Assembly: GCA_040285855.1 (NCBI GenBank)
Contig: JAUFOQ010000010.1
Coordinates: forward strand, 372,001-436,000
Direction: 5' to 3'
Length of the DNA stretch: 64,000 bases
Origin: Eukaryota sp. GEM-RC1
Taxonomy: Eukaryota
Made by a program: the position numbers and the translations under genes. Of this stretch, positions 2,546-64,000 are shown in pieces; the stretch's first letter is position 1; the number at the start of each line of letters is the position of its first letter. The notes beneath the pieces were generated by a model, which was given only the letters and a program-made list of their open reading frames with translations, did no database searches and had not been told where the DNA came from.

Positions 2546-2579
2546 AAGGTGAAACAATTTGATTTCTAAAAAAAATTAG

Positions 2580-2870
2580 AATGAATATTTCAAATTCACA
2601 GCCATCCTGCTTGACATGTGGGAAAGACAGCAGCAAACCAACTTATACACGTTTCAAAACTCAATCAATCAAACGAGTCGAAAGACGAGCCTCATCAGTG
2701 GTCTTCTGCCACGTCATCCAATAATTCTCTTGGATTCCGTCCATTATTAGGATCTGAGGTATTCTGCTTTTACGAGTGTTTTAGCAACGCTCCCATACTT
2801 AATTAGTAATGTTGCTTTTGTCAGTCACCGTTTTTTTATTCAACTTTTTCTTTTCGGGCGACATTGGTTC
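2580..2870 (+). pseudogene. Vestigial N-terminus of the LRR family (copy at ~37240-37520)
   Basis: The NVGFVSHCF / NVAFVSHRF motif matches the family motif VGYVSxxF. Confidence 0.4.
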
Positions 2871-18330: not shown

Positions 18331-18860
18331 AACGACTTTAAGATTCCAACGTTCGTCTGGCTATTCTTTAACTGAAATTAATGGTATTACTTATCATAAA
18401 CTCTGAAACAAATACTAACCATAGTCATTGGTTAATCGACGTTATGATTTTATATCAATAAACAATGGACCATAAACAATTATCATTTATAGAGACAATT
18501 ATTTTGTTTTTATTTTTGTCAAAGAATAGAGCAGCCACATTTCCAAAGCGGAGAGATGGGGCAGAAGTGCAACGATAAGATCTCCATAGAAATACAAGGT
18601 TTAGGAACGACGTGATGAAACATCTATAAAGGAGATTGGTATAAAGTTATTTTAACGGTGCGGTCAGAGCTTGTAGATGTGTGATTTAAAGAGTGATTAT
18701 TGTGGAAAAGAGTCTCTCTGAAAAGTGCAAATCCTTCATGAAATTAAAATGTAGAAACTGTTGATTATCTGTTCTACTCATTTGAATCATGAATCGTGAA
18801 TAGAACAATAAATTCATTTCAAATATTTTAAAAAATCTATATGTACTCTAAAAAACTATG

Positions 18861-21091
18861 AAGCCAGAATCGTCACCAAAAGTCAAAGATCTGTTTAGCC
18901 TGATTATTCACATAAATCAAAGACTGACTTATTAAAGAAACAAGAATTATTCAAAGTTAGTTTCTTGATTGTGAAACATTGAGACAAGGGCTGTAGTTGT
19001 GCTTCACCAGTACACGTAGTTATATTCCAAAACTTTGAGTGAAAAACAAATCACTCATCATATTTACCTTGTTTGATATAACCCAAGGTAAAGTAACCCA
19101 AGGAGCGAATCAAAAGATTGTAAACGACCCAGGCTTGATGAAGAAGCGATAAGAGAAACATGGGTTTTTGGATAGGATTTAGTAGAGATTTTAAGGTACC
19201 TCAAACTTTGATTCAGACACAGGGGTGATGCTATGACATGATCGTAGTCACATTGTGGAAGTACATTATAAGTGTTTGGAGAAAGAAGAAGATGGTTAAG
19301 AGCATCAGACTGTATAAGACACAACGGAGAGTTATTAAAGGAGATGATATTCTTCCAAACAATATTAGAATTCTGGAAGTGTGACCTCCTGATTCAAGTA
19401 CAGTCTAGACCTTAATGGGAGTTTTACCTTAATGGGAGGTTTTGTTTGTACAGACATGAACAGCAGACGACAGCCTTTTATGATATATAAACCAACAAAC
19501 TATGACTATTGTGCACCATTTGGTGATGAATTGAAGATGGCACGGATCTACCACCACGGGTAATCGTCGTCAAATTTAAGTGGTGGACACTCAATCATCA
19601 GCAAATAGCAATATTCTCTCAGATTTCTGCTAAATGGATGGATGAGAGAAGGGGAGAACTAGTGCTAACGGGGAGGGCGATATAAGAGCGAGAAAGGTCA
19701 AGGACGGACCTGCAACTACCAATATAGGAAAGGAGAAAGTTTCAGATACTCAAAGAGACAAATCACAGAGAACTTGTTCTGAAACCGTTAGTACGCAGAA
19801 TTGAATATGTGAATAGAAGAACCCCTTCAAAGCATTGATACGACAATAGCAGCATTAACATTGCTAGAGAAGAGTGTTCTTAAAAAGAGAATCTACAAGA
19901 GGGATATAAAAGATAGGGTAATTTATGCAAGAAGTACACCTAAAATCGTATTCTCAAGATGACAACGAAAACAGCAGATGATTGGTGATGAAAAGGGTAA
20001 GCTTATGTCTTAAGTTTACCCCTTGTTTCTTTGCTGCCTAAGAAACAATACTCTCTGTTATCTACTCTTTCTGAAAGTCAAAAATAAAAACCAATGATCC
20101 CGGTTAAGCTAGATTAGAAGGGTGTGATTGTTGCAAAGATAAGGTATCGATTCTGGCTTATATATGGTACTGTAACTGTTGGAAGAGGTTGAAAAGGAAC
20201 CCGAAAAGGGAAAAAATTGTCGTGCGACAAAATGATGTTGGAGTTTTTTTGAATGAACTCTTCGATCTGTGGTCTATTTTCTTCTTCCAATGTCTCACTA
20301 TCTCTGTGATATTTGTCATGAAATTCTCAAGAATCCGGTAACTACTTGGTGTGGCCACACCTTTTGTATGTCAGATTTGCAGGAGTGGCTTGTTTCTCAT
20401 AACGGATGTCCGATCTGTCGAGCTGAAGTGGACAAGTCAAGGCTGTGTCCTAACTACAAGTTGAAAGAAGCTGTTGAAGCCTTTGTTGCTGGTCAAGGTG
20501 AGACTATTTGTTTTGAGTGTGATGAAGCTGCTGCCACTTGTTATTGCGCAGATTGTGACGCTGATTTCTGTGACAACTGTTTTAACCCTGCGCATCGCCC
20601 CAAGTTGCTACGATCTCATGTTGCTGTCCCCCTAAATAAGAAGCATGCCTACCTTGTTCCTAAGTGCCCCAGCCACAACATGAAGTCGTTAGAGTTGTTC
20701 TGCACCTTCTGCTCCGTCGCCCTTTGCTCCACTTGTGCTTTCCTTGGTGATCATGACCAGCACAAAAAGAAGTTGCTTCCCTTTGACGAAGGTCGAACCT
20801 CTGTTGAAAAGAATATCAACTCTATAAACCAAGAATTGTCCGTTGCTATTGAAAAAATATCACAGTTAGCTGAAGCTGCTATTCAGCAAGCAACAAGTGG
20901 TTTTGTCCAACTCAAAGAAAGTCTGACTGTCCTGCTGCAAGAAACTATGTTAGACTCTGCTACCATTATGAATGACTTACAATCTGGGAAACCTGTCATT
21001 TTTAAGCCAAAGATCAGCGAAAAATTCACTACCACCACTTCAACCCTTCTCAACAACCAATCTAATATCATCTCCTCTTTAAATGAAGAAC
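18861..21091 (+). repeat. Segmental duplication (upstream region plus 5' part of the TRIM-LRR gene); copy at 61757-64000
   Basis: Near-identical sequence from 'aagccagaa..cgtcaccaaaagtcaaagatctg' onward in both places. Confidence 0.95.
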
Positions 21092-22245
21092 TTTTCTCCA
21101 TCCACTCCGATGTTTCTCGTCGTTTGACCTCTCTTTCCGTTGATTCGGAGTCTAGTGTTGCTTCTGCTAGGCTTCTAGAAGACCCTCCTTTACCAATCAA
21201 GTGCATTGAAAGTGTCTGCCCTGTACAACAAGTTGAAGAGAAGAAACTTGTTATTGATTGGAGCAAGCTTAGCTCTAAGTTGAAGAGTTGTTATGATCAA
21301 ATGGTGAGAAATGAGGTTTCTACGATCTATCTAAATAACAACTCAATTGGTACTGAAGGCGCTATTGCAATTGCTGAAGCTTTGAAGGTGAATTCTTCAC
21401 TTTCTACGATCAATCTAAATAACAACTCAATTGGTACTGAAGGCGCTATTGCAATTGCTGAAGCTTTGAAGGTGAATTCTTCACTTTCTACGATCAATCT
21501 AAATAACAACTCAATTGGTACTGAAGGCGCTATTGCAATTGCTGAAGCTTTGAAGGTGAATTCTTCACTTTCTACGATCAATCTAAATAGCAACTCAATT
21601 GGTACTGAAGGCGCTATTGCAATTGCTGAAGCTTTGAAGGTGAATTCTTCACTTTCTACGATCAATCTATATAACAACTCAATTGGTACTGAAGGCGCTA
21701 TTGCAATTGCTGAAGCTTTGAAGGTGAATTCTTCACTTTCTACGATCTATCTATATAACAACTCAATTGGTAATGAAGGCGCTATTGCAATTGCTGAAGC
21801 TTTGAAGGTGAATTCTTCACTTTCTACGATCTATCTATATAACAACTCAATTGGTAATGAAGGCGCTATTGCAATTGCTGAAGCTTTGAAGGTGAATTCT
21901 TCACTTTCTACGATCTATCTATATAACAACTCAATTGGTACTGAAGGCGCTATTGCAATTGCTGAAGCTTTGAAGGTGAATTCTTCACTTTCTACGATCT
22001 ATCTAGATAACAACTCAATTGGTACTGAAGGCGCTATTGCAATTGCTGAAGCTTTGAAGGTGAATTCTTCACTTTCTACGATCTATCTAGATAACAACTC
22101 AATTGGTACTGAAGGCGCTATTGCAATTGCTGAAGCTTTGAAGGTGAATTCTTCACTTTCTACGATCTATCTAAATAACAACTCAATCAACAGTCAAACA
22201 CAACAGTCGTTAAAATCTCTACACCAGAACAGAGTGTATTTTTAG
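20290..22245 (+). CDS. TRIM-like E3 ligase: RING, B-box1, B-box2, coiled coil/linker, 11 RNI-type LRR strands (651 aa)
   Basis: Intact ORF with ATG at 20290. RING CDICHE...CGHTFCMSD...CPIC; B-box1 CFEC...CADC...CDNC...H...H; B-box2 CPSH...CTFC...CSTC...HDQH; then 28-aa LSTIxLxxNSIGxEGAIAIAEALKVNSS repeats. Confidence 0.95.
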   Translation: MSHYLCDICHEILKNPVTTWCGHTFCMSDLQEWLVSHNGCPICRAEVDKSRLCPNYKLKEAVEAFVAGQGETICFECDEAAATCYCADCDADFCDNCFNPAHRPKLLRSHVAVPLNKKHAYLVPKCPSHNMKSLELFCTFCSVALCSTCAFLGDHDQHKKKLLPFDEGRTSVEKNINSINQELSVAIEKISQLAEAAIQQATSGFVQLKESLTVLLQETMLDSATIMNDLQSGKPVIFKPKISEKFTTTTSTLLNNQSNIISSLNEELFSIHSDVSRRLTSLSVDSESSVASARLLEDPPLPIKCIESVCPVQQVEEKKLVIDWSKLSSKLKSCYDQMVRNEVSTIYLNNNSIGTEGAIAIAEALKVNSSLSTINLNNNSIGTEGAIAIAEALKVNSSLSTINLNNNSIGTEGAIAIAEALKVNSSLSTINLNSNSIGTEGAIAIAEALKVNSSLSTINLYNNSIGTEGAIAIAEALKVNSSLSTIYLYNNSIGNEGAIAIAEALKVNSSLSTIYLYNNSIGNEGAIAIAEALKVNSSLSTIYLYNNSIGTEGAIAIAEALKVNSSLSTIYLDNNSIGTEGAIAIAEALKVNSSLSTIYLDNNSIGTEGAIAIAEALKVNSSLSTIYLNNNSINSQTQQSLKSLHQNRVYF

Positions 22246-23135
22246 ACATGTTTTTCTTGGATATAAAGATCACATTTTTCAATCACAAATAATTTCTTGT
22301 CAGAAACACCATTATTAAACGATGTATGTATAAAACACTTCAAAAATGATTTAGCTCAGAACAATCATTGTCCCGAACAAAACTCAGAAGTGACTCACCA
22401 CAGATAATCAAATATCATGGCTGTTTAGCAGATGTTGAGATACATATTTTAACTACTACTCTGGTGAGTAACACACATCATATTTACTCAGCTGGTGCTT
22501 TTGCGATTGTTCCCAATAACACCAGACATTTATTAGTATCTGAAATAGTGTTTATACTATATACTTACCAATATTTGGAATTGCCAACATTCAATCTCAT
22601 TATTAACACGACTATATTATCCTTTGAGAAGCTTCACTGTCAATATATGATGCTTGGATTATTCTCAGTGATGATTCATATACGTGTTTTTGCATTTTGT
22701 CAGTAAATCTGACAGTGATAGACAAAGAATTACCAAAACTGTTTCATTGAATATTGCAGTCAATAGCAAGAACACAAATGGCGGCGTTGAATTTACGAAG
22801 ACTCAGTGAAACTATTTTGCTTTCTGCAGTTTTTACATAGGCAAGTAAAAGCTATTGAAATTAAAGAGTATGAATTTGTAATCTTTGTTAACTGATTGTT
22901 GAGAATTTATTCGCAAATTACAGATATTTTACCAGAAGAAAGAGTGTATATATAGACTTTTTTAATACTGGTTAGAAGTAATATTATTATTTTGTCTTTG
23001 TGTCAAGACACAAAACCGGTTTTTGTACATCTTAACTTATGTAACATATACTAGGTGACACAGCAGTGGATATGTATTCTGTAGACTATCTGAAAAACAC
23101 AAAACGTAATTGATAAGGCTTTGAAGAAACACGGA

Positions 23136-23882
23136 GTCGTCTTTAAGCCAAAGATCAGCGAAAAATTCACTACCACCACTTCAACCCTTCTCAACAACCA
23201 ATCTAATATCATCTCCTCTTTAAATGAAGAACTGTTCTCCATCCACTCCGATGCTTCTCGTCGTTTGACCTCTCTTTCCGTTGATTCGGAGTCTAGTGTT
23301 GCTTCTGCTAGGCTTCTAGAAGACCCTCCTTTACCAATCAAGTGCATTGAAAGTGTCTGCCCTGTACAACAAGTTGAAGAGAAGAAACTTGTTATTGATT
23401 GGAGCAAGCTTAGCTCTAAGTTGAAGAGTTGTTATGATCAAATGGTGAGAAATGAGGTTTCTACGATCAATCTAGACAGCAACTCAATTGGTACTGAAGG
23501 CGCTATTGCAATTGCTGAAGCTTTGAAGGTGAATTCTTCACTTTCTACGATCTATCTAGATAACAACTCAATTGGTACTGAAGGCGCTATTGCAATTGCT
23601 GAAGCTTTGAAGGTGAATTCTTCACTTTCTAGAATCGATCTACGTAACAACTCAATTGGTACTGAAGGCGCTATTGCAATTGCTGAAGCTTTGAAGGTGA
23701 ATTCTTCACTTTCTACGATCTATCTAGATAACAACTCAATTGGTACTGAAGGCGCTATTGCAATTGCTGAAGCTTTGAAGGTGAATTCTTCACTTTCTAC
23801 GATCAATCTAAATAACAACTCAATCAACAGTCAAACACAACAGTCGTTAAAATCTCTACACCAGAACAGAGTGTATTTTTAG
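23136..23882 (+). pseudogene. 5'-truncated LRR cassette 1 (5 strands)
   Basis: Homology to the TRIM gene starts at V-x-FKPK. Frame is open; strands NLDS, YLDN, RIDLRN, YLDN, NLNN. No upstream in-frame ATG. Confidence 0.85.
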
Positions 23883-24771
23883 ACATGTTTTTCTTGGATA
23901 TAAAGATCACATTTTTCAATCACAAATAATTTCTTGTCAGAAACACCATTATTAAACGATGTATGTATAAAACACTTCAAAAATGATTTAGCTCAGAACA
24001 ATCATTGTCCCGAACAAAACTCAGAAGTGACTCACCACAGATAATCAAATATCATGGCTGTTTAGCAGATGTTGAGATACATATTTTAACTACTACTCTG
24101 GTGAGTAACACACATCATATTTACTCAGCTGGTGCTTTTGCGATTGTTCCCAATAACACCAGATATTTATTAGTATCTGAAATAGTGTTTATACTATATA
24201 CTTACCAATATTTGGAATTGCCAACATTCAATCTCATTATTAACACGACTATATTATCCTTTGAGAAGCTTCACTGTCAATATATGATGCTTGGATTATT
24301 CTCAGTGATGATTCATATACGTGTTTTTGCATTTTGTCAGTAAATCTGACAGTGATAGACAAAGAATTACCAAAACTGTTTCATTGAATATTGCAGTCAA
24401 TAGCAAGAACACAAATGGCGGCGTTGAATTTATGAAGACTCAGTGAAACTATTTTGCTTTCTGCAGTTTTTACATAGGCAAGTAAAAGCTATTGAAATTA
24501 AAGAGTATGAATTTGTAATCTTTGTTAACTGATTGTTGAGAATTTATTCGCAAATTACAGATATTTTACCAGAAGAAAGAGTGTATATATAGACTTTTTA
24601 ATACTGGTTAGAAGTAATATTATTATTTTGTCTTTGTGTCAAGACACAAAACCGGTTTTTGTACATCTTAACTTATGTAACATATACTAGGTGACACAGC
24701 AGTGGATATGTATTCTGTAGACTATCTGAAAAACACAAAACGTAATTGATAAGGCTTTGAAGAAACACGGA

Positions 24772-25686
24772 GTCGTCTTTAAGCCAAAGATCAGCGAAAA
24801 ATTCACTACCACCACTTCAACCCTTCTCAACAACCAATCTAATATCATCTCCTCTTTAAATGAAGAACTGTTCTCCATCCACTCCGATGCTTCTCGTCGT
24901 TTGACCTCTCTTTCCGTTGATTCGGAGTCTAGTGTTGCTTCTGCTAGGCTTCTAGAAGACCCTCCTTTACCAATCAAGTGCATTGAAAGTGTCTGCCCTG
25001 TACAACAAGTTGAAGAGAAGAAACTTGTTATTGATTGGAGCAAGCTTAGCTCTAAGTTGAAGAGTTGTTATGATCAAATGGTGAGAAATGAGGTTTCTAC
25101 GATCAATCTAGACAGCAACTCAATTGGTACTGAAGGCGCTATTGCAATTGCTGAAGCTTTGAAGGTGAATTCTTCACTTTCTACGATCTATCTAGATAAC
25201 AACTCAATTGGTACTGAAGGCGCTATTGCAATTGCTGAAGCTTTGAAGGTGAATTCTTCACTTTCTAGAATCGATCTACGTAACAACTCAATTGGTACTG
25301 AAGGCGCTTTTGCAATTGCTGAAGCTTTGAAGGTGAATTCTTCACTTTCTACGATCAATCTAAATAACAACTCAATTGGTAATGAAGGCGCTATTGCAAT
25401 TGCTGAAGCTTTGAAGGTGAATTCTTCACTTTCTACGATCTATCTATATAACAACTCAATTGGTACTGAAGGCGCTATTGCAATTGCTGAAGCTTTGAAG
25501 GTGAATTCTTCACTTTCTACGATCAATCTAAATAACAACTCAATTGGTAATGAAGGCGCTATTGCAATTGCTGAAGCTTTGAAGGTGAATTCTTCACTTT
25601 CTACGATCAATCTAAATAACAACTCAATCAACAGTCAAACACAACAGTCGTTAAAATCTCTACACCAGAACAGAGTGTATTTTTAG
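24772..25686 (+). pseudogene. 5'-truncated LRR cassette 2 (7 strands)
   Basis: Same 5' breakpoint; frame open to the native stop. Confidence 0.85.
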
Positions 25687-26577
25687 ACATGTTTTTCTTG
25701 GATATAAAGATCACATTTTTCAATCACAAATAATTTCTTATCAGAAACACCATTATTAAACGATGTATGTATAAAACACTTCAAAAATGATTTAGCTCAG
25801 AACAATCATTGTCCCGAACAAAACTCAGAAGTGACTCACCACAGATAATCAAATATCATGGCTGTTTAGCAGATGTTGAGATACATATTTTAACTACTAC
25901 TCTGGTGAGTAACACACATCATATTTACTCAGCTGGTGCTTTTGCGATTGTTCCCAATAACACCAGACATTTATTAGTATCTGAAATAGTGTTTATACTA
26001 TATTCTTACCAATATTTGGAATTGCCAACATTCAATCTCATTATTAACACGACTATATTATCCTTTGAGAAGCTTCACTGTCAATATATGATGCTTGGAT
26101 TATTCTCAGTGATGATTCATATACGTGTTTTTGCATTTTTTCAGTAAATCTGACAGTGATAGACAAAGAATTACCAAAACTGTTTCATTGAATATTGCAG
26201 TCAATAGCAAGAACACAAATGGCGGCGTTGAATTTACGAAGACTCAGTGAAACTATTTTGCTTTCTGCAGTTTTTACATAGGCAAGTAAAAGCTATTGAA
26301 ACTAAAGAGTATGAATTTGTAATCTTTGTTAACTGATTGTTGAGAATTTATTCGCAAATTACAGATATTTTACCAGAAGAAAGAGTGTATATATAGACTT
26401 TTTAATACTGGTTAGAAGTAATATTATTATTTTGTCTTTGTGTCAAGACACAAAACCGGTTTTTGTACATCTTAACTTATGTAACATATACTAGGTGACA
26501 CAGCAGTGGATATGTATTCTGTAGACTATCTGAAAAACACAAAACGTAATTGATAAGGCTTTGAAGAAACACGCGGA

Positions 26578-27408
26578 GTCGTCTTTAAGCCAAAGATCAG
26601 CGAAAAATTCACTACCACCACTTCAACCCTTCTCAACAACCAATCTAATATCATCTCCTCTTTAAATGAAGAACTGTTCTCCATCCACTCCGATGCTTCT
26701 CGTCGTTTGACCTCTCTTTCCGTTGATTCGGAGTCTAGTGTTGCTTCTGCTAGGCTTCTAGAAGACCCTCCTTTACCAATCAAGTGCATTGAAAGTGTCT
26801 GCCCTGTACAACAAGTTGAAGAGAAGAAACTTGTTATTGATTGGAGCAAGCTTAGCTCTAAGTTGAAGAGTTGTTATGATCAAATGGTGAGAAATGAGGT
26901 TTCTACGATCAATCTAGACAGCAACTCAATTGGTAATGAAGGCGCTATTGCAATTGCTGAAGCTTTGAAGGTGAATTCTTCACTTTCTACGATCAATCTA
27001 GACAGCAACTCAATTGGTAATGAAGGCGCTATTGCAATTGCTGAAGCTTTGAAGGTGAATTCTTCACTTTCTACGATCAATCTAAATAACAACTCAATTG
27101 GTAATGAAGGCGCTATTGCAATTGCTGAAGCTTTGAAGGTGAATTCTTCACTTTCTACGATCTATCTATATAACAACTCAATTGGTACTGAAGGCGCTAT
27201 TGCAATTGCTGAAGCTTTGAAGGTGAATTCTTCACTTTCTACGATCAATCTAAATAACAACTCAATTGGTAATGAAGGCGCTATTGCAATTGCTGAAGCT
27301 TTGAAGGTGAATTCTTCACTTTCTACGATCAATCTAAATAACAACTCAATCAACAGTCAAACACAACAGTCGTTAAAATCTCTACACCAGAACAGAGTGT
27401 ATTTTTAG
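26578..27408 (+). pseudogene. 5'-truncated LRR cassette 3 (6 strands)
   Basis: Same 5' breakpoint; frame open to the native stop. Confidence 0.85.
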
Positions 27409-28300
27409 ACATGTTTTTCTTGGATATAAAGATCACATTTTTCAATCACAAATAATTTCTTATCAGAAACACCATTATTAAACGATGTATGTATAAAACA
27501 CTTCAAAAATGATTTAGCTCAGAACAATCATTGTCCCGAACAAAACTCAGAAGTGACTCACCACAGATAATCAAATATCATGGCTGTTTAGCAGATGTTG
27601 AGATACATATTTTAACTACTACTCTGGTGAGTAACACACATCATATTTACTCAGCTGGTGCTTTTGCGATTGTTCCCAATAACACCAGACATTTATTAGT
27701 ATCTGAAATAGTGTTTATACTATATACTTACCAATATTTGGAATTGCCAACATTCAATCTCATTATTAACACGACTATATTATCCTTTGAGAAGCTTCAC
27801 TGTCAATATATGATGCTTGGATTATTCTCAGTGATGATTCATATACGTGTTTTTGCATTTTTTCAGTAAATCTGACAGTGATAGACAAAGAATTACCAAA
27901 ACTGTTTCATTGAATATTGCAGTCAATAGCAAGAACACAAATGGCGGCGTTGAATTTACGAAGACTCAGTGAAACTATTTTGCTTTCTGCAGTTTTTACA
28001 TAGGCAAGTAAAAGCTATTGAAATTAAAGAGTATGAATTTGTAATCTTTGTTAACTGATTGTTGAGAATTTATTCGCAAATTACAGATATTTTACCAGAA
28101 GAAAGAGTGTATATATAGACTTTTTTAATACTGGTTAGAAGTAATATTAATATTTTGTCTTTGTGTCAAGACACAAAACCGGTTTTTGTACATCTTAACT
28201 TATGTAACATATACTAGGTGACACAGCAGTGGATATTTATTCTGTAGACTATCTGAAAAACACAAAACGTAATTGATAAGGCTTTGAAGAAACACGCGGA

Positions 28301-29047
28301 GTCGTCTTTAAGCCAAAGATCAGCGAAAAATTCACTACCACCACTTCAACCCTTCTCAACAACCAATCTAATATCATCTCCTCTTTAAATGAAGAACTGT
28401 TCTCCATCCACTCCGATGCTTCTCGTCGTTTGACCTCTCTTTCCGTTGATTCGGAGTCTAGTGTTGCTTCTGCTAGGCTTCTAGAAGACCCTCCTTTACC
28501 AATCAAGTGCATTGAAAGTGTCTGCCCTGTACAACAAGTTGAAGAGAAGAAACTTGTTATTGATTGGAGCAAGCTTAGCTCTAAGTTGAAGAGTTGTTAT
28601 GATCAAATGGTGAGAAATGAGGTTTCTACGATCAATCTAGACAGCAACTCAATTGGTAATGAAGGCGCTATTGCAATTGCTGAAGCTTTGAAGGTGAATT
28701 CTTCACTTTCTACGATCAATCTAAATAACAACTCAATTGGTAATGAAGGCGCTATTGCAATTGCTGAAGCTTTGAAGGTGAATTCTTCACTTTCTACGAT
28801 CTATCTATATAACAACTCAATTGGTACTGAAGGCGCTATTGCAATTGCTGAAGCTTTGAAGGTGAATTCTTCACTTTCTACGATCAATCTAAATAACAAC
28901 TCAATTGGTAATGAAGGCGCTATTGCAATTGCTGAAGCTTTGAAGGTGAATTCTTCACTTTCTACGATCAATCTAAATAACAACTCAATCAACAGTCAAA
29001 CACAACAGTCGTTAAAATCTCTACACCAGAACAGAGTGTATTTTTAG
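28301..29047 (+). pseudogene. 5'-truncated LRR cassette 4 (5 strands)
   Basis: Same 5' breakpoint; frame open to the native stop. Confidence 0.85.
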
Positions 29048-29938
29048 ACATGTTTTTCTTGGATATAAAGATCACATTTTTCAATCACAAATAATTTCTT
29101 ATCAGAAACACCATTATTAAACGATGTATGTATAAAACACTTCAAAATGATTTAGCTCAGAACAATCATTGTCCCGAACAAAACTCAGAAGTGACTCACC
29201 ACAGATAATCAAATATCATGGCTGTTTAGCTGATGTTGAGATACATATTTTAACTACTACTCTGGTGAGTAACACACATCATATTTACTCAGCTGGTGCT
29301 TTTGCGATTGTTCCCAATAACACCAGACATTTATTAGTATCTGAAATAGTGTTTATACTATATACTTACCAATATTTGGAATTGCCAACATTCAATCTCA
29401 TTATTAACACGACTATATTATCCTTTGAGAAGCTTCACTGTCAATATATGATGCTTGGATTATTCTCAGTGATGATTCATATACGTGTTTTTGCATTTTT
29501 TCAGTAAATCTGACAGTGATAGACAAAGAATTACCAAAACTGTTTCATTGAATATTGCAGTCAATAGCAAGAACACAAATGGCGGCGTTGAATTTACGAA
29601 GACTCAGTGAAACTATTTTGCTTTCTGCAGTTTTTACATAGGCAAGTAAAAGCTATTGAAATTAAAGAGTATGAATTTGTAATCTTTGTTAACTGATTGT
29701 TGAGAATTTATTCGCAAATTACAGATATTTTACCAGAAGAAAGAGTGTATATATAGACTTTTTTAATACTGGTTAGAAGTAATATTAATATTTTGTCTTT
29801 GTGTCAAGACACAAAACCGGTTTTTGTACATCTTAACTTATGTAACATATACTAGGTGACACAGCAGTGGATATGTATTCTGTAGACTATCTGAAAAACA
29901 CAAAACGTAATTGATAAGGCTTTGAAGAAACACGCGGA

Positions 29939-31357
29939 GTTGTCTTTAAGCCAAAGATCAGCGAAAAATTCACTACCACCACTTCAACCCTTCTCAACAA
30001 CCAATCTAATATCATCTCCTCTTTAAATGAAGAACTGTTCTCCATCCACTCCGATGCTTCTCGTCGTTTGACCTCTCTTTCCGTTGATTCGGAGTCTAGT
30101 GTTGCTTCTGCTAGGCTTCTAGAAGACCCTCCTTTACCAATCAAGTGCATTGAAAGTGTCTGCCCTGTACAACAAGTTGAAGAGAAGAAACTTGTTATTG
30201 ATTGGAGCAAGCTTAGCTCTAAGTTGAAGAGTTGTTATGATCAAATGGTGAGAAATGAGGTTTCTACGATCAATCTAAATAACAACTCAATTGGTACTGA
30301 AGGCGCTATTGCAATTGCTGAAGCTTTGAAGGTGAATTCTTCACTTTCTACGATCTATCTATATAACAACTCAATTGGTACTGAAGGCGCTATTGCAATT
30401 GCTGAAGCTTTGAAGGTGAATTCTTCACTTTCTACGATCAATCTAAATAACAACTCAATTGGTAATGAAGGCGCTATTGCAATTGCTGAAGCTTTGAAGG
30501 TGAATTCTTCACTTTCTACGATCAATCTAAATAACAACTCAATTGGTACTGAAGGCGCTATTGCAATTGCTGAAGCTTTGAAGGTGAATTCTTCACTTTC
30601 TACGATCTATCTAGATAACAACTCAATTGGTACTGAAGGCGCTATTGCAATTGCTGAAGCTTTGAAGGTGAATTCTTCACTTTCTAGAATCGATCTAAAT
30701 AACAACTCAATTGGTAATGAAGGCGCTATTGCAATTGCTGAAGCTTTGAAGGTGAATTCTTCACTTTCTACGATCAATCTAAATAACAACTCAATTGGTA
30801 ATGAAGGCGCTATTGCAATTGCTGAAGCTTTGAAGGTGAATTCTTCACTTTCTACGATCTATCTATATAACAACTCAATTGGTACTGAAGGCGCTATTGC
30901 AATTGCTGAAGCTTTGAAGGTGAATTCTTCACTTTCTACGATCAATCTAAATAACAACTCAATTGGTAATGAAGGCGCTATTGCAATTGCTGAAGCTTTG
31001 AAGGTGAATTCTTCACTTTCTACGATCGGTCTATCTAACAACTCAATTGGTAATGAAGGCGCTATTGCAATTGCTGAAGCTTTGAAGGTGAATTCTTCAC
31101 TTTCTACGATCGGTCTATCTAACAACTCAATTGGTAATGAAGGCGCTATTGCAATTGCTGAAGCTTTGAAGGTGAATTCTTCACTTTCTACGATCGGTCT
31201 ATCTAACAACTCAATTGGTAATGAAGGCGCTATTGCAATTGCTGAAGCTTTGAAGGTGAATTCTTCACTTTCTACGATCAATCTAAATAACAACTCAATC
31301 AACAGTCAAACACAACAGTCGTTAAAATCTCTACACCAGAACAGAGTGTATTTTTAG
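29939..31357 (+). pseudogene. 5'-truncated LRR cassette 5 (13 strands)
   Basis: Same 5' breakpoint; includes the unique TIGLSNN x3 and RIDLNNN strands; frame open. Confidence 0.85.
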
Positions 31358-32248
31358 ACATGTTTTTCTTGGATATAAAGATCACATTTTTCAATCACAA
31401 ATAATTTCTTATCAGAAACACCATTATTAAACGATGTATGTATAAAACACTTCAAAAATGATTTAGCTCAGAACAATCATTGTCCCGAACAAAACTCAGA
31501 AGTGACTCACCACAGATAATCAAATATCATGGCTGTTTAGCAGATGTTGAGATACATATTTTAACTACTACTCTGGTGAGTAACACACATCATATTTACT
31601 CAGCTGGTGCTTTTTCGATTGTTCCCAATAACACCAGACATTTTTTAGTATCTGAAATAGTGTTTATACTATATACTTACCAATATTTGGAATTGCCAAC
31701 ATTCAATCTCATTATTAACACGACTATATTATCCTTTGAGAAGCTTCACTGTCAATATATGATGCTTGGATTATTCTCAGTGATGATTTATATACGTGTT
31801 TTTGCATTTTTCAGTAAATCTGACAGTGATAGACAAAGAATTACCAAAACTGTTTCATTGAATATTGCAGTCAATAGCAAGAACACAAATGGCGGCGTTG
31901 AATTTACGAAGACTCAGTGAAACTATTTTGCTTTCTGCAATTTTTACATAGGCAAGTAAAAGCTATTGAAATTAAAGAGTATGAATTTGTAATCTTTGTG
32001 AACTGATTGTTGAGAATTTATTCGCAAATTACAGATATTTTACCAGAAGAAAGAGTGTATATATAGACTTTTTTAATACTGGTTAGAAGTAATATTATTA
32101 TTTTGTCTTTGTGTCAAGACACAAAACCGGTTTTTGTACATCTTAACTTATGTAACATATACTAGGTGACATAGCAGTGGATATGTATTCTGTAGACTAT
32201 CTGAAAAACACAAAACGTAATTGATAAGGCTTTGAAGAAACACGCGGA

Positions 32249-33891
32249 GTCGGCTTTAAGCCAAAGATCAGCGAAAAATTCACTACCACCACTTCAACCC
32301 TTCTCAACAACCAATCTAATATCATCTCCTCTTTAAATGAAGAACTTTTCTCCATCCACTCCGATGTTTCTCGTCGTTTGACCTCTCTTTCCGTTGATTC
32401 GGAGTCTAGTGTTGCTTCTGCTAGGCTTCTAGAAGACCCTCCTTTACCAATCAAGTGCATTGAAAGTGTCTGCCCTGTACAACAAGTTGAAGAGAAGAAA
32501 CTTGTTATTGATTGGAGCAAGCTTAGCTCTAAGTTGAAGAGTTGTTATGATCAAATGGTGAGAAATGAGGTTTCTACGATCTATCTAGACAGCAACTCAA
32601 TTGGTAATGAAGGCGCTATTGCAATTGCTGAAGCTTTGAAGGTGAATTCTTCTCTTTCTACGATCAATCTATATAACAACTCAATTGGTAATGAAGGCGC
32701 TATTGCAATTGCTGAAGCTTTGAAGGTGAATTCTTCTCTTTCTACGATCAATCTATATAACAACTCAATTGGTAATGAAGGCGCTATTGCAATTGCTGAA
32801 GCTTTGAAGGTGAATTCTTCACTTTCAACCATAGTTGCAAAATACAAAATACAGTATTTTTTTGTATTCTGTATTTTTTCTGTATTATGTTTTGTATTTT
32901 TTTCTGGACAAGTGTATTTGTATTTTTTGTATTTATTTATCAGCCCGAAAATCCCTTTAATTGATGAAAATGACTGAAGTCATTGAGAGCAACACTCGAC
33001 AGCGGATCTTTCTGATCAATTGTACTATTGTTTGGAACAATTGGCACATGTATTATTTTAACAACTTGCAGAAATGCTAGTACAACTGTTTGCTGAATTT
33101 TCGAAACGTTCCAGTACAGTACGTCAACGGCGTATGCTAGATGACTAAAAAGTGAAACACCGACCAAAGTCAAGTAACAAAAATTTAGAAACGCTTAATA
33201 ATGTTCTTTCCAAAGAGTTGAAAAATACCAAACCATGTGAAGTTGTGCAATCTAGTTTCACTACTGTCAGTCAGTGATGAAGATTTAAAGCCCTGATGAG
33301 ACGAGCTGCACGACACTCAGATTGATCCTGTTTTGAAGATGTACGTGTAGTCTTTGGAGACTATGATTTCGAGTATATACATTTTTACCTACACTCGATG
33401 TATAAAGACGATTTACAACTAATGTGCGAGACAAAAAGTGTCCAAAGTCACATTGTAAAACTGTACGACTCCACGTCAGTTCTTTCCGTGGACCAAGTGC
33501 ACATTTGAACCCTCGGTGCATTTCAGAATCGAAATAACAATTGGGTTGATAAATGAAAAAAGTCTAAGAATGTGTACTGAAGAGGTGAACCATGATAACC
33601 CTGAAAATCAATCACGTTTGCAGTCATTGGACTCAATACACTTGGTTTAATACTTGCAATTACTAGAAAGAAAAACAATTAATACAGTATTCTGTATTGT
33701 ATTTGTATTCTGTATTCTGTATTGTATTTTTGTAAATTTATTCTGTATTTTTTGTATTCTGTATTGTATTATTTTTTTTGTCCGTGTATTTTGCAACTAT
33801 GCTTTCAACGATCTATCTACATAACAACTCAATCAACAGTCAAACACAACAGTCGTTAAAATCTCTACACCAGAACAGAGTGTATTTTTAG
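32249..33891 (+). pseudogene. 5'-truncated LRR cassette 6 (4 strands), interrupted by a hAT MITE
   Basis: The reading frame resumes after 33801 with TIYLHNNSINSQ...RVYF*. Confidence 0.85.
32830..33801. mobile_element. Non-autonomous hAT-superfamily MITE, 972 bp
   Basis: Perfect 17-bp TIR CATAGTTGCAAAATACA / TGTATTTTGCAACTATG and 8-bp TSD CTTTCAAC (32822-32829 and 33802-33809). Sub-terminal (c)tgtatt repeats; no transposase ORF. Confidence 0.95.
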
Positions 33892-34784
33892 ACATGTTTT
33901 TCTTGGATATAAAGATCACATTTTTCAATCACAAATAATTTCTTGTCAGAAACACCATAATTAAACGGTGTATGTATAAAACACTTCAAAAATGATTTAG
34001 CTCAGAACAATCATTGTCCCGAACAAAACTCAGAAGTGACTCACCACAGATAATCAAATATCATGGCTGTTTATGTAGATGTTGAGATACATATTTTAAC
34101 TACTACTCTGGTGAGTAACACACATCATATTTACTCAGCTGGTGCTTTTGCGATTGTTCTCAATAACACCAGACATTTATTAGTATCTGAAATAGTGTTT
34201 ATACTATATACTTACCAATATTGGGAATTGCCAACATTCAATCTCATTATTAACACGACTATATTATCCTTTGAGAAGCTTCACTGTCAATATATGATGC
34301 TTGGATAATTCTCAGTGATGATTCATAAACGTGTTTTTACATTTTTTCAGTAAATCTGACAGTGATAGACAAAGAATTACCAAAACTGTTTCATTGAATA
34401 TTGCAGTCAATAGCAAGAACACAAATGGCGACGTTGAATTTACGAAGACTCAGTGAAACTATTTTGCTTTCTGCAGTTTTTATATAGGCAAGTATAAGCT
34501 ATTGAAATTAAAGAGTATGAATTTGTGATCTTTGTTAACTAATTGTTGAGAATTTATTCGCAAATTGCAGATATTTTACCAGAAGAAAGAGTGTATGTAT
34601 AGACTTTTTTAATACTGGTTAGAAGTAATATTATTATTTTGTCTTTGTGTCAAGACACAAAACCGGTTTTTGTACATCTTAACTTATGTAACATATACTA
34701 GGTGACACAGCAGTGGATATGTATTCTGTAGACTATCTGAAAAACACAAAACGTAATTGATAAGGCTTTGAAGAAACACGCGGA

Positions 34785-35363
34785 GTCGTCTTTAAGCCAA
34801 AGATCAGCGAAAAATTCACTACCACCACTTCAACCCTTCTCAACAACCAATCTAATATCATCTCCTCTTTAAATGAAGAACTTTTCTCCATCCACTCCGA
34901 TGCTTCTCGTCGTTTGACCTCTCTTTCCGTTGATTCGGAGTCTAGTGTTGCTTCTGCTAGGCTTCTAGAAGACCCTCCTTTACCAATCAAGTGCATTGAA
35001 AGTGTCTGCCCTGTACAACAAGTTGAAGAGAAGAAACTTGTTATTGATTGGAGCAAGCTTAGCTCTAAGTTGAAGAGTTGTTATGATCAAATGGTGAGAA
35101 ATGAGGTTTCTACGATCGATCTAAATAACAACTCAATTGGTAATGAAGGCGCTATTGCAATTGCTGAAGCTTTGAAGGTGAATTCTTCACTTTCTACGAT
35201 CTATCTATATAACAACTCAATTGGTCCTGAAGCCGCTATTGCAATTGCTGAAGCTTTGAAGGTGAATTCGTCTGTTTCTACGATCGATCTATATAACAAC
35301 TCAATCAACAGTCAAACACAACAGTCGTTAAAATCACTGCACAAGAATAGAATTTATTTCTAA
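34785..35363 (+). pseudogene. 5'-truncated LRR cassette 7 (3 strands) with a diverged 3' end
   Basis: Same 5' breakpoint; ends HKNRIYF* (TAA). Its 3' flank is only loosely similar to the other spacers. Confidence 0.85.
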
Positions 35364-35898: not shown

Positions 35899-38800
35899 GA
35901 TTAACATGTATCAATGTAATTAAGTAGCGGTGATTGTGTGGCGTCGATTGTTAAACGACATTGTGTTAGTTTCACAAAAAAAAACACATCACAACTAACA
36001 ACAATCAATGTTGATCTAATTCTTTATAGTAACTTTCAAAATGGTACAAACAAATCTTGATGATAAGCAAAGACGAATTGAATGTATAAACGAAAACCAA
36101 GAATTGACGAAATTCACAGATATGGATATACAACAGGATAAAGAAATTAGTAAAAGATCTTGATGATGTGGCCGAAGCATAATTTACCAACAATCTACAC
36201 CACACTTTGAAATAAACATGTCACAAACCTAGTTTGACAGAATCATGGATTATTCGGAATCAATATAATTGGTGTTTGATCACATTAAGTACATATACGA
36301 TTTTTTCAACTTTTGTTATTGTACAAGAATTGCATCAGAATCTACAGCACATTTACTGCACTGATCCTACATGGCAAATCTTTTTGTACGAATAGTAAAC
36401 TATTTCAATCAATCCAATTTCAAAACAACTATTATACATCCCAAAACAAAATACGCGTTGAAAGCAAAATAAAATTGGATTTGTTCAAAATGATTTGAAA
36501 ATGTAATTATAAATTGTCTGATAACTCTGAAACAATGTCAAAAACTGACAAATCGAAATTTAATTTATGAACGAAACACTATGAAAATGACTACAAAATC
36601 AGATGTTAGACTCTGTAATAAACATTCTGATGACGTCACACTGATAAAAGTTACCGACAGAGTCAAATGGTTTCTATCAGTCAAGAAAAGATAAACCCTC
36701 ACTCGTCAGAGTAGGTTAATGTGATAAATCATTTTACTCTGTCGCTCATTCCTCACTGAGAAGAACCCTAACCTTAACATAAAGGCCTATATTGGATGCT
36801 TAATACGTTATTTGATGAACTTTACTTGGGGTTCATCCCTTCTCTTAAAAGTACTCGTTTCCAGAACTCTAAACTTGCATACCAACTTGACCTCCCGTGT
36901 CATTTACAATTGAAAATTCACTCTCAAAAGATAAAAGCATTCCAACCTTCTTCAATAATTTTCTACTTCCACTTCTGATACTCAGAAGAATGGATATCCT
37001 CCCAGCACCAGTTCCAAAGTTCATTTCTATACACCGTCCAATCCTGCGTGCAACTTCTGCAAGAAACCTGGTTATTCAATAGACCACTATCCTAATCCTT
37101 TTCTGCAGAACATCCAAAGTGAACAAAAACCAAAAGTCTTACCCACAGTTAATCCTAGTAATCCAAAATACACTGCTAATAACTCCAAAAGAAGTAGACT
37201 CTTAAGGTGAAACAATTTTATTTCTAAAAAAATTCAAATGAACATTTCAAATTCACAGCCATCCTGCTTGACATGTGGGAAAGACAGCAGCAAACCAACT
37301 TATACACGTTTCACAACGCAATCAATCAAATGAGTCGAAAGACGACCCCTCATCAGTGGTCTTCTGCTACGTCATCCAATAATTCTCTTGGATTCCGTCT
37401 ATTATGAGGATCTGAGGTTTTCTGATTTTACGGGTGTTTTAGCAACGTTCCCATACTTAATTAGGAATGTTGGTTTTGTCAGTCACTGTTTTTTATTCAA
37501 CTTTTTCTTTTCGCCGACATTGGTTCTTAAAGAACAAAAAGTTCCAAAAATATCTCAAATCAATAAGAGTGACATTAAACACTGTAAGTTCCACAATTTT
37601 CATTTGTTCAAATCAATAATTAAAATAGCAGAGATTCTGTGTGATCAAAATTACTTTCGTCACCCATTGAAATCACTTTATTTATTGAATTTATAAATTC
37701 TTAACATAAATGAAACAAATACAACGACACTACACATAAACTGCAGTCATCACTTTCATTTCCTCAGTAAAACGAAGAACATATTGAAGAATTGACCTGA
37801 AAGTTTTGATTTAATAAGTATTAAATAGATTAAATGATTTTGTACTGGAAACCTTGGAAATGAAACACCCAGAAGTTTGTCCACAGATTCACTCAGATTA
37901 GAACCGTGAAAATTGTGGGAATGAGTGATTTTTGTTTTCGTACTTAAATAAGTGACACGTAGATGGTGATTTGAATCTTGCTCACCTTACAGTGCTGATG
38001 ACGTCATCAATTTATCAACCACGTGGCCATCCACAAGGACTGACCAGATCTAAAGTGATTTGGAAGAGAATAGATTGGAGACGTTGATGGGAGAAGTTCA
38101 TATGAAGCAGATCAAGGGACATAGGAAAAGCAAAGAGAAGGGATGTTCATTCAAAAGATCAAGATATCAAGTTGAGACCTGACACTGTTGTCCTGCATGC
38201 AAAGTTGTTGGGTTCAGCAGAGGGCTTCAGAGGAAAGTTAATATTCTTCTCGTTGTGGACGTAAAGTGGAGGTGTAGAATTGTAGCACAACACCTGAGTT
38301 ACAGGTAGATAGAGGAGAATCACCACGTTACTTAAAAGATGTAAGAACTGGTCTTTGTGACAAACAGCAGAAAGTTTGGGTGCTAGATTCACTTTGAGAT
38401 TAAAGTAGAAGTCTGTTTTTCTCTGGCTACATCCCATAGAAGTTCATCTTATTTCAACCAATCTCCACTTACATGTCAGATCCTTCATCACCTGGTCATC
38501 AGTTCCCTTGTGATCATGTTCATTTCCAACAATCCTTGTTGACACTGATACAATCTCACTACATCAGAAGTTACTTAAGGAACTGGAAGGATAAGAACTG
38601 GTGGTACTTTAGTAGTGTGACACAATTTCTACCGCGTTTCTTGAAAAGGTTGGTTATGTGAGTCAATATTTCTTTGAATCTTCTGTTATAGCAGTTAAGA
38701 ATTTTCTTGGGAATAACTCATTTTATGTCTGTTCTACCAATTTTCCAAGAGTTCGTTCATTTGAATCTAGTTTCGGAATAGAACTCGGTTCCATAATTCT

Positions 38801-39945
38801 AAACGTTCACGAATCGTTTGAATGGAAAAATATTTCACTTTTACTTCAACTATTTCTGGTGTCTTCTTGCCTCAACATGCCTTTGAAAATGATCATGACT
38901 CTATGTTACAACTTCTCTTTGATGAATCTTTCCCTTTCTTCTCAGTGAATCTTATATACCTTCGGTTTACCATAAACAGTTCAAAGGATAACATTAATTC
39001 TATATGTGATTACCTTCCAAAACATTCAAGCATCTCAGATTTAGCCATTGAAATTCATTCTCTCACTTCATTTGATGCGTTAGTTCTTGCTAAAGTGTTT
39101 TCTTCAAATCAAACATTACGTAAGGTTTCTCTGGTATCTTCGAAAAGTATAGATGAAAAGTCTATATTGCGGTTTGAAGGTCTTGCGATTAGTCGAATTC
39201 AACACCTTGATTTAACAGATTTTTGTATAGACAATTCAAATGTTCTTGTGTCCCTACTATCACGTTCTTCTTTGTCAACTTTTGTTTCCCCCGTTGTTCT
39301 TCCATTGATTCGGCGGTGTTTGCTGTTTTGCAGAGCAATACCAGTCTAAAAGAGGTAACAATATTAAATGGAACTTTTACTTTTCATGATCTTACAGATG
39401 TTCTTATTCATAATCCTATTGTGAGGAAATTAAACCTGTCATCGTGTAATGTTTCATTATCATTATTATTTAAATTTTTGAATCAAATTCCACTGTGTTA
39501 GAGTTATCTATTTCTGAACAAATTATTAGAAAATTCAATGACCAAGAAGTAGAGTCCTTATGTGGAATGTTACAACGCAATTCTTGTTTGCTTATCTTGA
39601 GTCTTCACGGTTTACGATTTACTTTTTTGCAATTCAATATTTTTCTAAATGCACTTGAAAATCACTCAATGCTAAAAAAAGTACTTTGTCCCTTTTGAAT
39701 TTAAATTGCTTAATTACAATGTTTGAAAGAATGTTTCCTGGTAAAACAAGATCTCTGATTGATGTAACTCCCTATGATATCAATGTTTTCGATGGTTCTA
39801 TTTGGTATCCAGATGAAATTGAACATGATGATTTAATATCACTTTTAAATGCTTTAAGATTAGGGATTCCCATTATCCGTGTTGAATGTGTGGAAAACAA
39901 CATGTATTCGAGTCTTGACAAATTTATTACAATATTTGAAATTCT
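35899..39945 (+). repeat. Segmental duplication of 1269-5292
   Basis: Collinear, near-identical sequence, including identical ORFs at 3503/38159 and 3817/38473. Confidence 0.95.
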
Positions 39946-63198: not shown

Positions 63199-64000
63199 AT
63201 GTCTCACTATCTCTGTGATATTTGTCATGGAATTCTCAAGAATCCGGTAACTACTTGGTGTGGCCACACCTTTTGTATGTCGGATTTGCAGGAGTGGCTT
63301 GTTTCTCATAACGGATGTCCGATCTGTCGAGCTGAAGTGGACAAGTCAAGGCTGTGTCCTAACTACAAGTTGAAAGAAGCTGTTGAAGCCTTTGTTGCTG
63401 GTCAAGGTGAGACTATTTGTTTTGAGTGTGATGAAGCTGCTGCCACTTGTTATTGCGCAGATTGTGACGCTGATTTCTGTGACAACTGTTTTAACCCTGC
63501 GCATCGCCCCAAGTTGCTACGATCTCATGTTGCTGTCCCCCTAAATAAGAAGCATGCCTACCTTGTTCCTAAGTGCCCCAGCCACAACATGAAGTCGTTA
63601 GAGTTGTTCTGCACCTTCTGCTCCGTTGCCCTTTGTTCCACGTGTGCTTTCCTTGGTGACCATGACCAACACAAGAAGAAGTTGCTTCCCTTCGATGAAG
63701 GTCGAACCTCTGTTGAAAAGAATATCAACTCAATTAATCAAGAGTTGTCGTTAGGCATTGAAAAAATATCACAGTCAGCTGAAGCTGCTATCCAGCAAGC
63801 AACAAGTGGTTTTGTCCAACTCAAAGAAAGTCTGACTCTCCTGCTGCAAGAAACTATGTTAGACTCTGCTACCATTATGAATGACTTACAATCTGGGAAA
63901 CCTGTCATTTTTACGCCAAAGATCAGCGAAAAATTCACTACCACCACTTCAACCCTTCTCAACAACCAATCTAATATCATCTCCTCTTTAAATGAAGAAC
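63199..64000 (+). CDS. Second TRIM-like RING/B-box gene (runs off the window)
   Basis: ATG at 63199; open frame nearly identical to 20290-21091. Confidence 0.9.
   Translation, partial: MSHYLCDICHGILKNPVTTWCGHTFCMSDLQEWLVSHNGCPICRAEVDKSRLCPNYKLKEAVEAFVAGQGETICFECDEAAATCYCADCDADFCDNCFNPAHRPKLLRSHVAVPLNKKHAYLVPKCPSHNMKSLELFCTFCSVALCSTCAFLGDHDQHKKKLLPFDEGRTSVEKNINSINQELSLGIEKISQSAEAAIQQATSGFVQLKESLTLLLQETMLDSATIMNDLQSGKPVIFTPKISEKFTTTTSTLLNNQSNIISSLNEE

What the first reader, a model, noticed from the sequence alone, without database searches (positions are those of the whole stretch)
20290..35363. TRIM-like E3 ligase followed by seven headless, variable LRR cassettes: candidate diversifying-receptor system
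Seen: one complete RING/B-box/B-box/coiled-coil/LRR gene is followed by seven same-strand copies that all begin at the same linker codon, lack the RING/B-box half and lack an upstream in-frame ATG. Each carries a different number and order of LRR strands (11; 5, 7, 6, 5, 13, 4, 3). Six of the seven frames are open; the other is broken only by a MITE. Each cassette has ~320 bp of 5' homology, and all but the last have ~900 bp of 3' homology to the gene. Known: one expression site plus silent donor cassettes is the design of lamprey VLR, Borrelia vlsE and avian Ig gene conversion, and TRIM proteins use their C-terminal domain for substrate recognition. Inference: the cassettes are donors, by gene conversion or loop-out, that swap the substrate-binding surface of an intracellular ubiquitin ligase. 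That would be an anticipatory immune-like repertoire in a microbial eukaryote.
Basis: partly seen in the sequence, partly recalled or inferred. Interest (0 to 1): 0.9.

Follow-up and report, generated by a model that had tools for sequence, protein, structure and literature searches.

The report
Ubiquitin ligase with spare LRR cassettes
In what is likely a free-living protist, a gene predicted to encode a TRIM-like ubiquitin ligase is followed by seven headless tandem copies of its variable leucine-rich end; the copies share shuffled repeat blocks and likely act as a passive stock of spare ends, not a programmed switching system.

Summary
A 651-aa RING/B-box/B-box/helical/LRR gene (20290-22245) is followed by seven headless copies (5,7,6,5,13,4,3 strands) in one head-to-tail array; cassette 6 holds a 972-bp TIR element. 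Closest named relatives are Eukaryota sp. GEM-RC1 (Skoliomonas) proteins.

For exchange: variation sits on four concave-face LRR codons. Linker+cap are more uniform than spacers (2/384 vs 32/899 sites, p=0.001; p=0.08 without spacer 6). Gene and cassette 6 share a derived linker allele. The family-typical 3' end now sits on cassette 7, so the gene's end was likely swapped once.

Against a vlsE/pilS-like system: cassettes share ordered blocks with each other, but the gene shares no two-unit block with any cassette. Other full-length paralogs exist, and I found no recombination signal. Reads and genome were unavailable, so somatic switching is untested.

Best reading (0.6): an unprogrammed reservoir built by partial duplication and unequal crossing-over, working like Podospora NWD repeat shuffling. 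Selected, frequent donor use: about 0.15.

The parts
20290..22245 (+). Complete gene, 651 aa: RING (6-43), two B-boxes (74-111, 124-160), long helices (166-281), linker (238-343), 11 LRR strands of 28-aa RI-like repeats, C-terminal cap
21001..21318 (+). 318-bp linker shared with every cassette; only 2 variable sites among 8 copies
22246..23141 (+). ~897-bp spacer, repeated after the gene and cassettes 1-6; no open frame in this copy; weak similarity to window 48-129
23142..23882 (+). Cassette 1, 5 strands, open
24778..25686 (+). Cassette 2, 7 strands, open; start like cassette 1, last 4 units like cassettes 3/4
26584..27408 (+). Cassette 3, 6 strands, open
28307..29047 (+). Cassette 4, 5 strands, open; equals cassette 3 minus one unit
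29945..31357 (+). Cassette 5, 13 strands, open; three IGLS strands found nowhere else in the array
32255..33891 (+). Cassette 6, 4 strands, interrupted; linker identical to the gene's
32830..33801 (.). 972-bp non-autonomous TIR element, 17-bp perfect TIR, 8-bp target duplication (hAT-like by duplication length, recalled)
34791..35363 (+). Cassette 7, 3 strands, open; linker like the array's, but last units, cap (8 of 66 bp differ) and 3' flank are of the family-typical type
63199..64000 (+). Second copy of the head, running off the window, inside a 97% duplicate of 18857-21091; 15 synonymous and 6 replacement codons against the gene

Best explanation
A gene predicted to encode a TRIM-like ubiquitin ligase with a variable LRR binding surface is followed by a head-to-tail array of seven headless copies of its 3' half, likely built and reshuffled by ordinary homologous recombination and likely serving as a passive, unprogrammed reservoir of spare LRR strands and ends. 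Steps: (1) shown: unit = linker + n x 84 bp + cap + spacer, all with one junction. (2) Inferred: one illegitimate join (spacer end to linker start) made the first headless unit, probably from a paralog, because the cap and spacer differ by 12-31% from the end now on cassette 7. (3) Inferred from block sharing: unequal crossing-over inside the LRRs multiplied and mixed the units. (4) Inferred: conversion with intact genes keeps cassette linkers fresh while spacers decay. (5) Inferred: any crossover or conversion in the gene's linker or LRRs puts cassette strands behind the RING; this happened at least once in the lineage, but is rare rather than routine. (6) Inferred: selection on intact genes, probably for binding changing foreign proteins, keeps the strand alleles diverse.
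For: 11 of 19 alternative codons among 54 LRR units fall in 4 of 28 codons, all changing the residue (p=1e-5). These four are x positions of the xxLxLxx strand motif; the model puts the strands at residues 345-347 etc.. Cassettes 1-5 share ordered blocks: mean longest run 2.8 units vs 1.46 shuffled, 0 of 5000 shuffles. Spacer 32/899 vs linker+cap 2/384 variable sites, p=0.00095. Gene and cassette 6 share linker Val where the other cassettes and 8 of 8 relatives have Ala. 0 of 16 relatives have the gene's cap; cassette 7's cap ends like P0002 and P0012. Gene vs paralog head: 19 of 23 differences in one 168-nt block, a conversion-like patch. A relative's protein P0015 has the same element read-through as cassette 6 but 3 of 140 residues changed, all on strand positions (p about 1e-3). 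Another subfamily has a two-copy LRR+cap gene model (P0069, two accessions).
Against: The linker/spacer contrast rests largely on spacers 5 and 6 (p=0.077 without spacer 6). The synonymous deficit alone is not significant (1 seen, 2.9 expected, P=0.21), so purifying selection on the cassettes fits as well as conversion. The direction of exchange is unknown. A Thr allele absent from 78 parsed strands of relatives falls from 7/10 in the gene and 4/4 in cassette 1 to 0 in cassettes 6-7, which fits flow out of the gene, i.e. cassettes as a sink. P0015's differences could be polishing errors in either assembly. One locus, one haplotype.
Confidence: 0.6

Rival explanations
1. Selected donor system: the cassettes are kept as silent templates, and frequent, mostly one-way conversion or loop-out rewrites the ligase's LRR end within a population or clone, as at vlsE or pilE.
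For: The layout matches pilS and vls (headless, tandem, conserved ends; PMC4534519 passages). Replacement sites in linker+cap are conserved (1 seen, 10.7 expected, P=3e-4). No stop or small indel occurs in 5859 coding bp against roughly 4.7 expected (P about 0.009; rough, assumes 4.5% of substitutions give stops, not independent of homogenisation, and the element insertion is itself a break). 8 strand types are cassette-only. Short vls-type tracts would leave no multi-unit block, and 5 of the gene's 10 full units have an exact match in a cassette.
Against: The gene shares no run of 2 units with any cassette and has 2 strand types no cassette has. There are several full-length paralogs rather than one site. 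Cassettes are redundant mosaics of each other. No G4 motif in the window; no boundary inverted repeat among the 25 longest of 98 pairs. One cassette tolerates an insertion.
Confidence: 0.15
2. Dead-end by-product: the array is young duplication debris in a repeat-rich genome; it receives sequence from genes but contributes nothing back.
For: The window is full of 92-97% segmental duplicates and frameshifted LRR genes. The relative's genome is reported 48% repetitive (PMC11316075 Table 1 passage). Headless fragments are scattered in the relative's proteome. The Thr gradient runs outward from the gene.
Against: The gene now carries the array-type cap rather than the family-typical one, so array-type sequence has ended up in the intact gene at least once. 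Homologous exchange has no built-in direction.
Confidence: 0.12
3. The cassettes are expressed in their own right, as LRR-only proteins from the internal ATG (decoys or competitors) or as alternative last exons spliced to the head, and purifying selection keeps them open.
For: Each cassette has an in-frame ATG at the linker's end. A donor-like GTGAGA follows it at 21304 and 23445. Relatives have gene models starting at that ATG (P0015, P0069, P0077; predictions only).
Against: In cassette 1, seven out-of-frame ATGs precede the in-frame one within 22701-23442, three of them inside the linker. The linker would be untranslated yet is the most uniform part. The gene is open with no need for an intron, and relatives are collinear there.
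Confidence: 0.08
4. Assembly or polishing artefact: the array, or the exact order of strands, is wrong.
For: 84-bp units differ by 0-5 bases, so short-read polishing can mix them. P0015 and cassette 6 differ only at such sites. No reads could be laid.
Against: Each spacer is distinct, with a distance gradient and transition-rich differences; there is a clean element insertion with target duplication and a divergent last unit. Artefact of individual strand letters remains plausible (about 0.2); artefact of the whole array is unlikely.
Confidence: 0.05

Closest known systems
Podospora anserina NWD/HNWD NLR family (het-d, het-e, het-r); PMC4986451 passages, PMC2873952 abstract and one section
   Same: Near-identical repeats under concerted evolution, about four hypervariable codons per repeat on the binding surface, repeat-number variation, new units made by recombination.
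   Different: WD40 behind NACHT there, LRR behind RING/B-box here. The passages I read describe no headless cassette array. In 143 Podospora mutants the rearrangements were intragenic, so such genes diversify without donors.
Neisseria pilE/pilS, Borrelia vlsE/vls, Anaplasma msp2 (PMC4534519 passages)
   Same: Headless or incomplete cassettes, some in tandem, with conserved ends around variable segments, near a complete gene.
   Different: Those are surface antigens with one expression site and proven frequent one-way conversion. Here the protein is a predicted cytosolic ligase with several full-length paralogs, and no cassette block is found in the gene.
Ectocarpus ROCO LRR-GTPases (PMC3341825 abstract)
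   Same: Microbial/algal eukaryote LRR sensor candidates, diversifying selection, shuffled LRR units, somatic recombination proposed.
   Different: One exon per repeat there; here an intronless 84-bp minisatellite and whole 3' halves are duplicated.
TRIM/RBCC E3 ligases
   Same: RING, two B-boxes, long helices, then a C-terminal recognition domain; the best named distant hits are TRIM-like.
   Different: The C-terminal domain is an RI-like LRR solenoid instead of PRY-SPRY, NHL or FN3. One RING ligand position is Asp (residue 29). No TRIM_CC Pfam hit.
Lamprey VLR and Pneumocystis MSG (both recalled, no call)
   Same: LRR cassettes (VLR); headless genes brought behind a single head (MSG).
   Different: The VLR germline gene is incomplete and assembled somatically; this gene is complete. 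MSG has a single head locus; this family does not.

Membership tests
TRIM/RBCC E3 ligase | N-terminal RING | tested here: met
   Pfam zf-C3HC4_2 35.7 bits vs cut-off 27, residues 6-43; one ligand position is Asp (sequence)
TRIM/RBCC E3 ligase | One or two B-boxes after the RING | tested here: met
   zf-B_box, 2 stretches, 42.5 bits vs cut-off 24.1
TRIM/RBCC E3 ligase | Coiled coil after the B-boxes | tested here: inconclusive
   Helices 166-219 and 240-281 at pLDDT about 50-62 in a single-sequence model; no TRIM_CC hit
TRIM/RBCC E3 ligase | Ubiquitin ligase activity | not testable with these tools
   Inferred from domains only
TRIM/RBCC E3 ligase | Common descent with animal TRIMs | not tested
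   No tree built; similarity hits only
Donor-cassette gene conversion (vlsE, pilE, msp2) | Incomplete cassettes with conserved ends and variable middles | tested here: met
Donor-cassette gene conversion (vlsE, pilE, msp2) | Single expression site | tested here: not met
   Second head at 63199 with 15 synonymous: 6 replacement codons; full-length relatives P0001, P0002, P0004, P0009, P0016
Donor-cassette gene conversion (vlsE, pilE, msp2) | Expressed copy is a mosaic of cassette segments | tested here: inconclusive
   No multi-unit block (max run 1, as in 3210 of 5000 shuffles); 5 of 10 units match singly, so short tracts cannot be excluded
Donor-cassette gene conversion (vlsE, pilE, msp2) | Cassettes are silent; conversion is one-way and frequent within a clone | not testable with these tools
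   No reads or genome on hand
Donor-cassette gene conversion (vlsE, pilE, msp2) | Dedicated cis signal (such as the pilE G4, recalled) | tested here: not met
   No G3+ four-tract motif in the window; no boundary inverted repeat among the 25 longest pairs; other signal types untested
Lamprey VLR | Incomplete germline gene assembled from LRR cassettes (recalled) | tested here: not met
   Gene is complete and open
Fungal NLRs with high-internal-conservation repeats | Repeats at least 85% identical over 100 aa, with a few hypervariable surface codons | tested here: met
   definition from PMC4986451
Fungal NLRs with high-internal-conservation repeats | NACHT or NB-ARC domain | tested here: not met
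   None among 20 Pfam families hit; works like the family, not a member

The most novel reading that the evidence does not exclude
A free-living metamonad keeps arrays of silent LRR cassettes behind TRIM-like ligase genes and rewrites the ligase's binding face by frequent short-tract gene conversion or loop-out. Each population would then carry a changing, anticipatory repertoire of intracellular degraders: antigenic-variation machinery turned into a receptor-diversification system in a single cell.
Probability: 0.15. Interest if true: 0.9.

Novelty: new variant of a known kind. Interest (0 to 1): 0.58.

Why it matters
Even the modest reading gives an undescribed family (by my searches) of TRIM-like ligases with hypervariable LRR faces in a lineage where nothing is known about defence. 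It also shows a simple route from one partial duplication to a pilS-like layout, a plausible starting point for donor-cassette systems. The question left open for brown algae, whether microbial eukaryotes diversify receptors somatically, is directly testable here with long reads across one 15-kb locus, because cassette-only strands and private spacer variants act as markers.

Tried and rejected
No whole genome is held for the window, so other loci could not be read as DNA. No sequencing run was listed; this is no evidence either way, and no reads could be laid. The metagenome scan gave 1 weak locus from 355 candidate stretches (L001, 42% over residues 209-266, E 4e-5), set aside as probable helical-region chance. 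An exact LRR-unit pattern found 0 matches in prokaryote genomes and 0 in viral contigs. Earlier scan findings: nothing returned. The spacer end as a decayed head: rejected, local score 26 vs shuffled mean 26.5. 'The gene's string turns over faster than the cassettes': considered and dropped, because crossovers fall inside the LRRs, so the spacer after the gene dates cassette 1 and not the gene's LRRs. Polarising spacer changes with cassette 7's flank: most of cassette 6's alignable private changes looked derived (about 5 of 6 substitutions with a clear column), too few to show that the gene's spacer is conserved. One search trimmed the target duplication by 9 bp and misread cassette 6's last strand; one search corrected this to 8 bp. 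No complex prediction was run, as no binding claim is made.
Full report
OBSERVATION. The gene at 20290-22245 is an open 651-aa frame with RING, two B-boxes and LRR_6 repeats. A single-sequence AlphaFold model is confident only for the LRR part (pLDDT about 80-90) and shows long low-confidence helices at 166-281; the LRR part matches ribonuclease-inhibitor/NOD2-type solenoids. Seven headless copies start at 23142, 24778, 26584, 28307, 29945, 32255 and 34791, with 5,7,6,5,13,4,3 strands. The whole is a head-to-tail array: 318-bp linker, n x 84 bp, 66-bp cap, 895-899-bp spacer. Cassette 6 holds a 972-bp element with 17-bp terminal inverted repeats and an 8-bp target duplication.

IS IT REAL? All 7 spacers differ. 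Distances from the gene's spacer are 2,4,4,5,9,16 along the array, with ts/tv 18/14. Collapsed alleles would not give that. No genome or reads were on hand, so individual strand letters could still be polishing errors.

RELATIVES. A search with residues 1-350 gave 7 hits among 3346 candidates: 5 from Eukaryota sp. GEM-RC1 (50-81%) and 2 weak frog TRIM-like proteins. GEM-RC is a Skoliomonas isolate, a free-living metamonad (PMC11316075 passages; PMC11603281 listing and abstract start). The organism is therefore likely a skoliomonad; I did not try to place the window further. That proteome has at least five full-length RING-to-LRR members (P0001, P0002, P0004, P0009, P0016), each with its own strand string, and many headless gene models, whose genomic setting I could not see. 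Of 150 listed representatives I scanned 37 with only the top 5 families shown and 12 of these in full. Only P0097, unnamed and with the same LRR dialect, showed LRRs. The Atlas lists B-box+LRR clusters at 0.86, leads only, so B-box/LRR fusions probably exist elsewhere.

THE GENE IS UNDER SELECTION. Against the second head at 63199, 15 of 21 changed codons are synonymous. Among the 54 LRR units, 11 of 19 alternative codons fall in 4 of 28 positions and all change the residue (p=1e-5). These are four of the five x positions of the strand motif, which by established LRR structure face the concave binding surface. This is the pattern described for fungal NLR repeats: concerted evolution plus about four hypervariable codons on the interaction face (PMC4986451 passages).

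THE CASSETTES RECOMBINE. Cassettes 1-5 share ordered blocks (mean longest run 2.8 units, 1.46 in shuffles, 0 of 5000). Cassette 2 starts like cassette 1 and ends like cassettes 3 and 4; cassette 4 is cassette 3 minus a unit. This is the signature of unequal crossing-over inside the LRRs. Linker and cap vary at 2 of 384 sites, spacers at 32 of 899 (p=0.00095), although both exist once per unit; without spacer 6 it is 17 of 899 (p=0.077). Replacement sites show the deficit (1 vs 10.7 expected), synonymous sites do not clearly (1 vs 2.9), so conversion with intact genes and purifying selection cannot be told apart. The gene and cassette 6 alone share a linker Val; 8 of 8 relatives have Ala. The head itself shows a conversion-like patch: 19 of 23 differences from the paralog lie in 168 of 801 nt. 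P0015 (GEMRC1_010183) reads into the same inserted element as cassette 6 yet differs at 3 of 140 residues, all on strand positions. So either a broken cassette is still being rewritten at the variable codons, or one assembly is mispolished; I cannot say whether P0015 is another locus or another version of this one.

ONE END SWAP IS RECORDED. Cassette 7's cap differs from the array's at 8 of 66 bp and its flank is 69-84% alike. None of 16 relatives has the gene's cap; all have caps of cassette 7's kind, and that includes P0010 and P0011, whose linkers are 90-96% identical to the array's. Cassette 7's flank also matches window 49-151 better (86%) than the array spacer does (72%). The simplest reading is that cassette 7 is the head's original 3' end and the array was brought in between by recombination in the LRRs. 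A deletion joining the array to a downstream paralog fits too. Either way LRR ends have been exchanged by homology on an evolutionary timescale.

NO SIGN OF ROUTINE DONATION. The gene shares at most one unit in a row with any cassette, as in 3210 of 5000 shuffles; 5 of its 10 full units match a cassette unit singly. It has 2 strand types that no cassette has, while cassettes hold 8 it lacks. A Thr allele unseen in 78 parsed strands of relatives declines away from the gene (rho -0.87, units not independent), which suggests flow from gene to array. There is no single expression site. I found no G4 motif and no boundary inverted repeat among the 25 longest of 98 pairs. In Podospora, 143 selected mutants rearranged within the gene (PMC2873952 abstract and section 9), so such repeats need no donors. 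vlsE tracts can be as short as 1 bp (PMC4534519 passages), so short-tract donation is not excluded.

MECHANISM AND ODDS. Passive reservoir kept in recombinational contact with intact genes, 0.6. Selected, frequent donor system, 0.15. Dead-end debris, 0.12. Expressed LRR-only or spliced cassettes, 0.08. Artefact of the whole array, 0.05. Shown: anatomy, concentration of variation, block sharing, linker/spacer contrast, odd cap. Inferred: ligase activity, a defence role, every direction and rate of exchange.

NOVELTY. Searches of the held library found no description. Skoliomonas with genome: 9 papers listed. GEM-RC/Skoliomonas/LRR: 3 listed, each with 0 occurrences of LRR. TRIM + B-box + LRR + unicellular eukaryotes + tripartite motif: 0. 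Silent cassettes/gene conversion/LRR/protist/ubiquitin ligase: 5 listed, none on this by title and abstract start. The genome paper's main text has 0 hits for leucine or LRR, and its text supplements none for LRR; one scanned supplement was not searched. The library lacks most subscription papers. The closest proposal in print is somatic LRR exon shuffling in Ectocarpus (PMC3341825, abstract only). VLR, Pneumocystis MSG, the pilE G4 and the hAT 8-bp rule are recalled. Verdict: a new variant of a known kind, interest 0.58, with a 15% chance of something much bigger that long reads can settle.

Noticed in passing
window 1269-5292 vs 35899-39945; 14306-14875 vs 45590-46162; 18857-21091 vs 61753-64000: Collinear duplicates at 92-97% identity with offsets of 31-43 kb: the locus sits in a larger tandem segmental duplication, so the copy at 63199 may have its own array beyond the window.
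   Followed up: partly
window 44327-44872 (-) and 60486-61406 (-): Two related ORFs (69% DNA identity) with a CxC...H...C knuckle and a downstream motif that look like the end of a non-LTR retrotransposon. No Pfam hit; one Atlas structure match lies in a cluster with RVT_1 in 76% of members.
   Followed up: partly
window 3960-10807, 38822-42730: A second, divergent LRR-like family in long genes split by frameshifts, with longer internal repeats; pseudogenes or residual assembly errors.
   Followed up: no
window 54281-55540 (-) and 55992-57281 (+): Divergently oriented LRR genes of the same 28-aa dialect but with well-diverged repeats, so the near-identical repeats are special to the RING/B-box family here.
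   Followed up: no
window 58544-59672 (+): Two overlapping frames with an N-terminal hydrophobic stretch and a P-loop-like motif; no Pfam hit.
   Followed up: no
protein P0003 (GEMRC1_008656): Same RING/B-box head (66%) but a non-LRR C-terminal domain, RRM-like by eye, with no Pfam hit: C-terminal domain swapping at the linker has occurred in this family.
   Followed up: partly
proteins P0036, P0084-P0086 (five accessions): Near-identical headless four-strand LRR+cap gene models at five places on one relative's contig, differing mainly in the last strands.
   Followed up: partly
window 46111-47016 (-): 301-aa frame that looks gag-like by eye, inside the gap that splits a duplicated block; no Pfam hit.
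   Followed up: no
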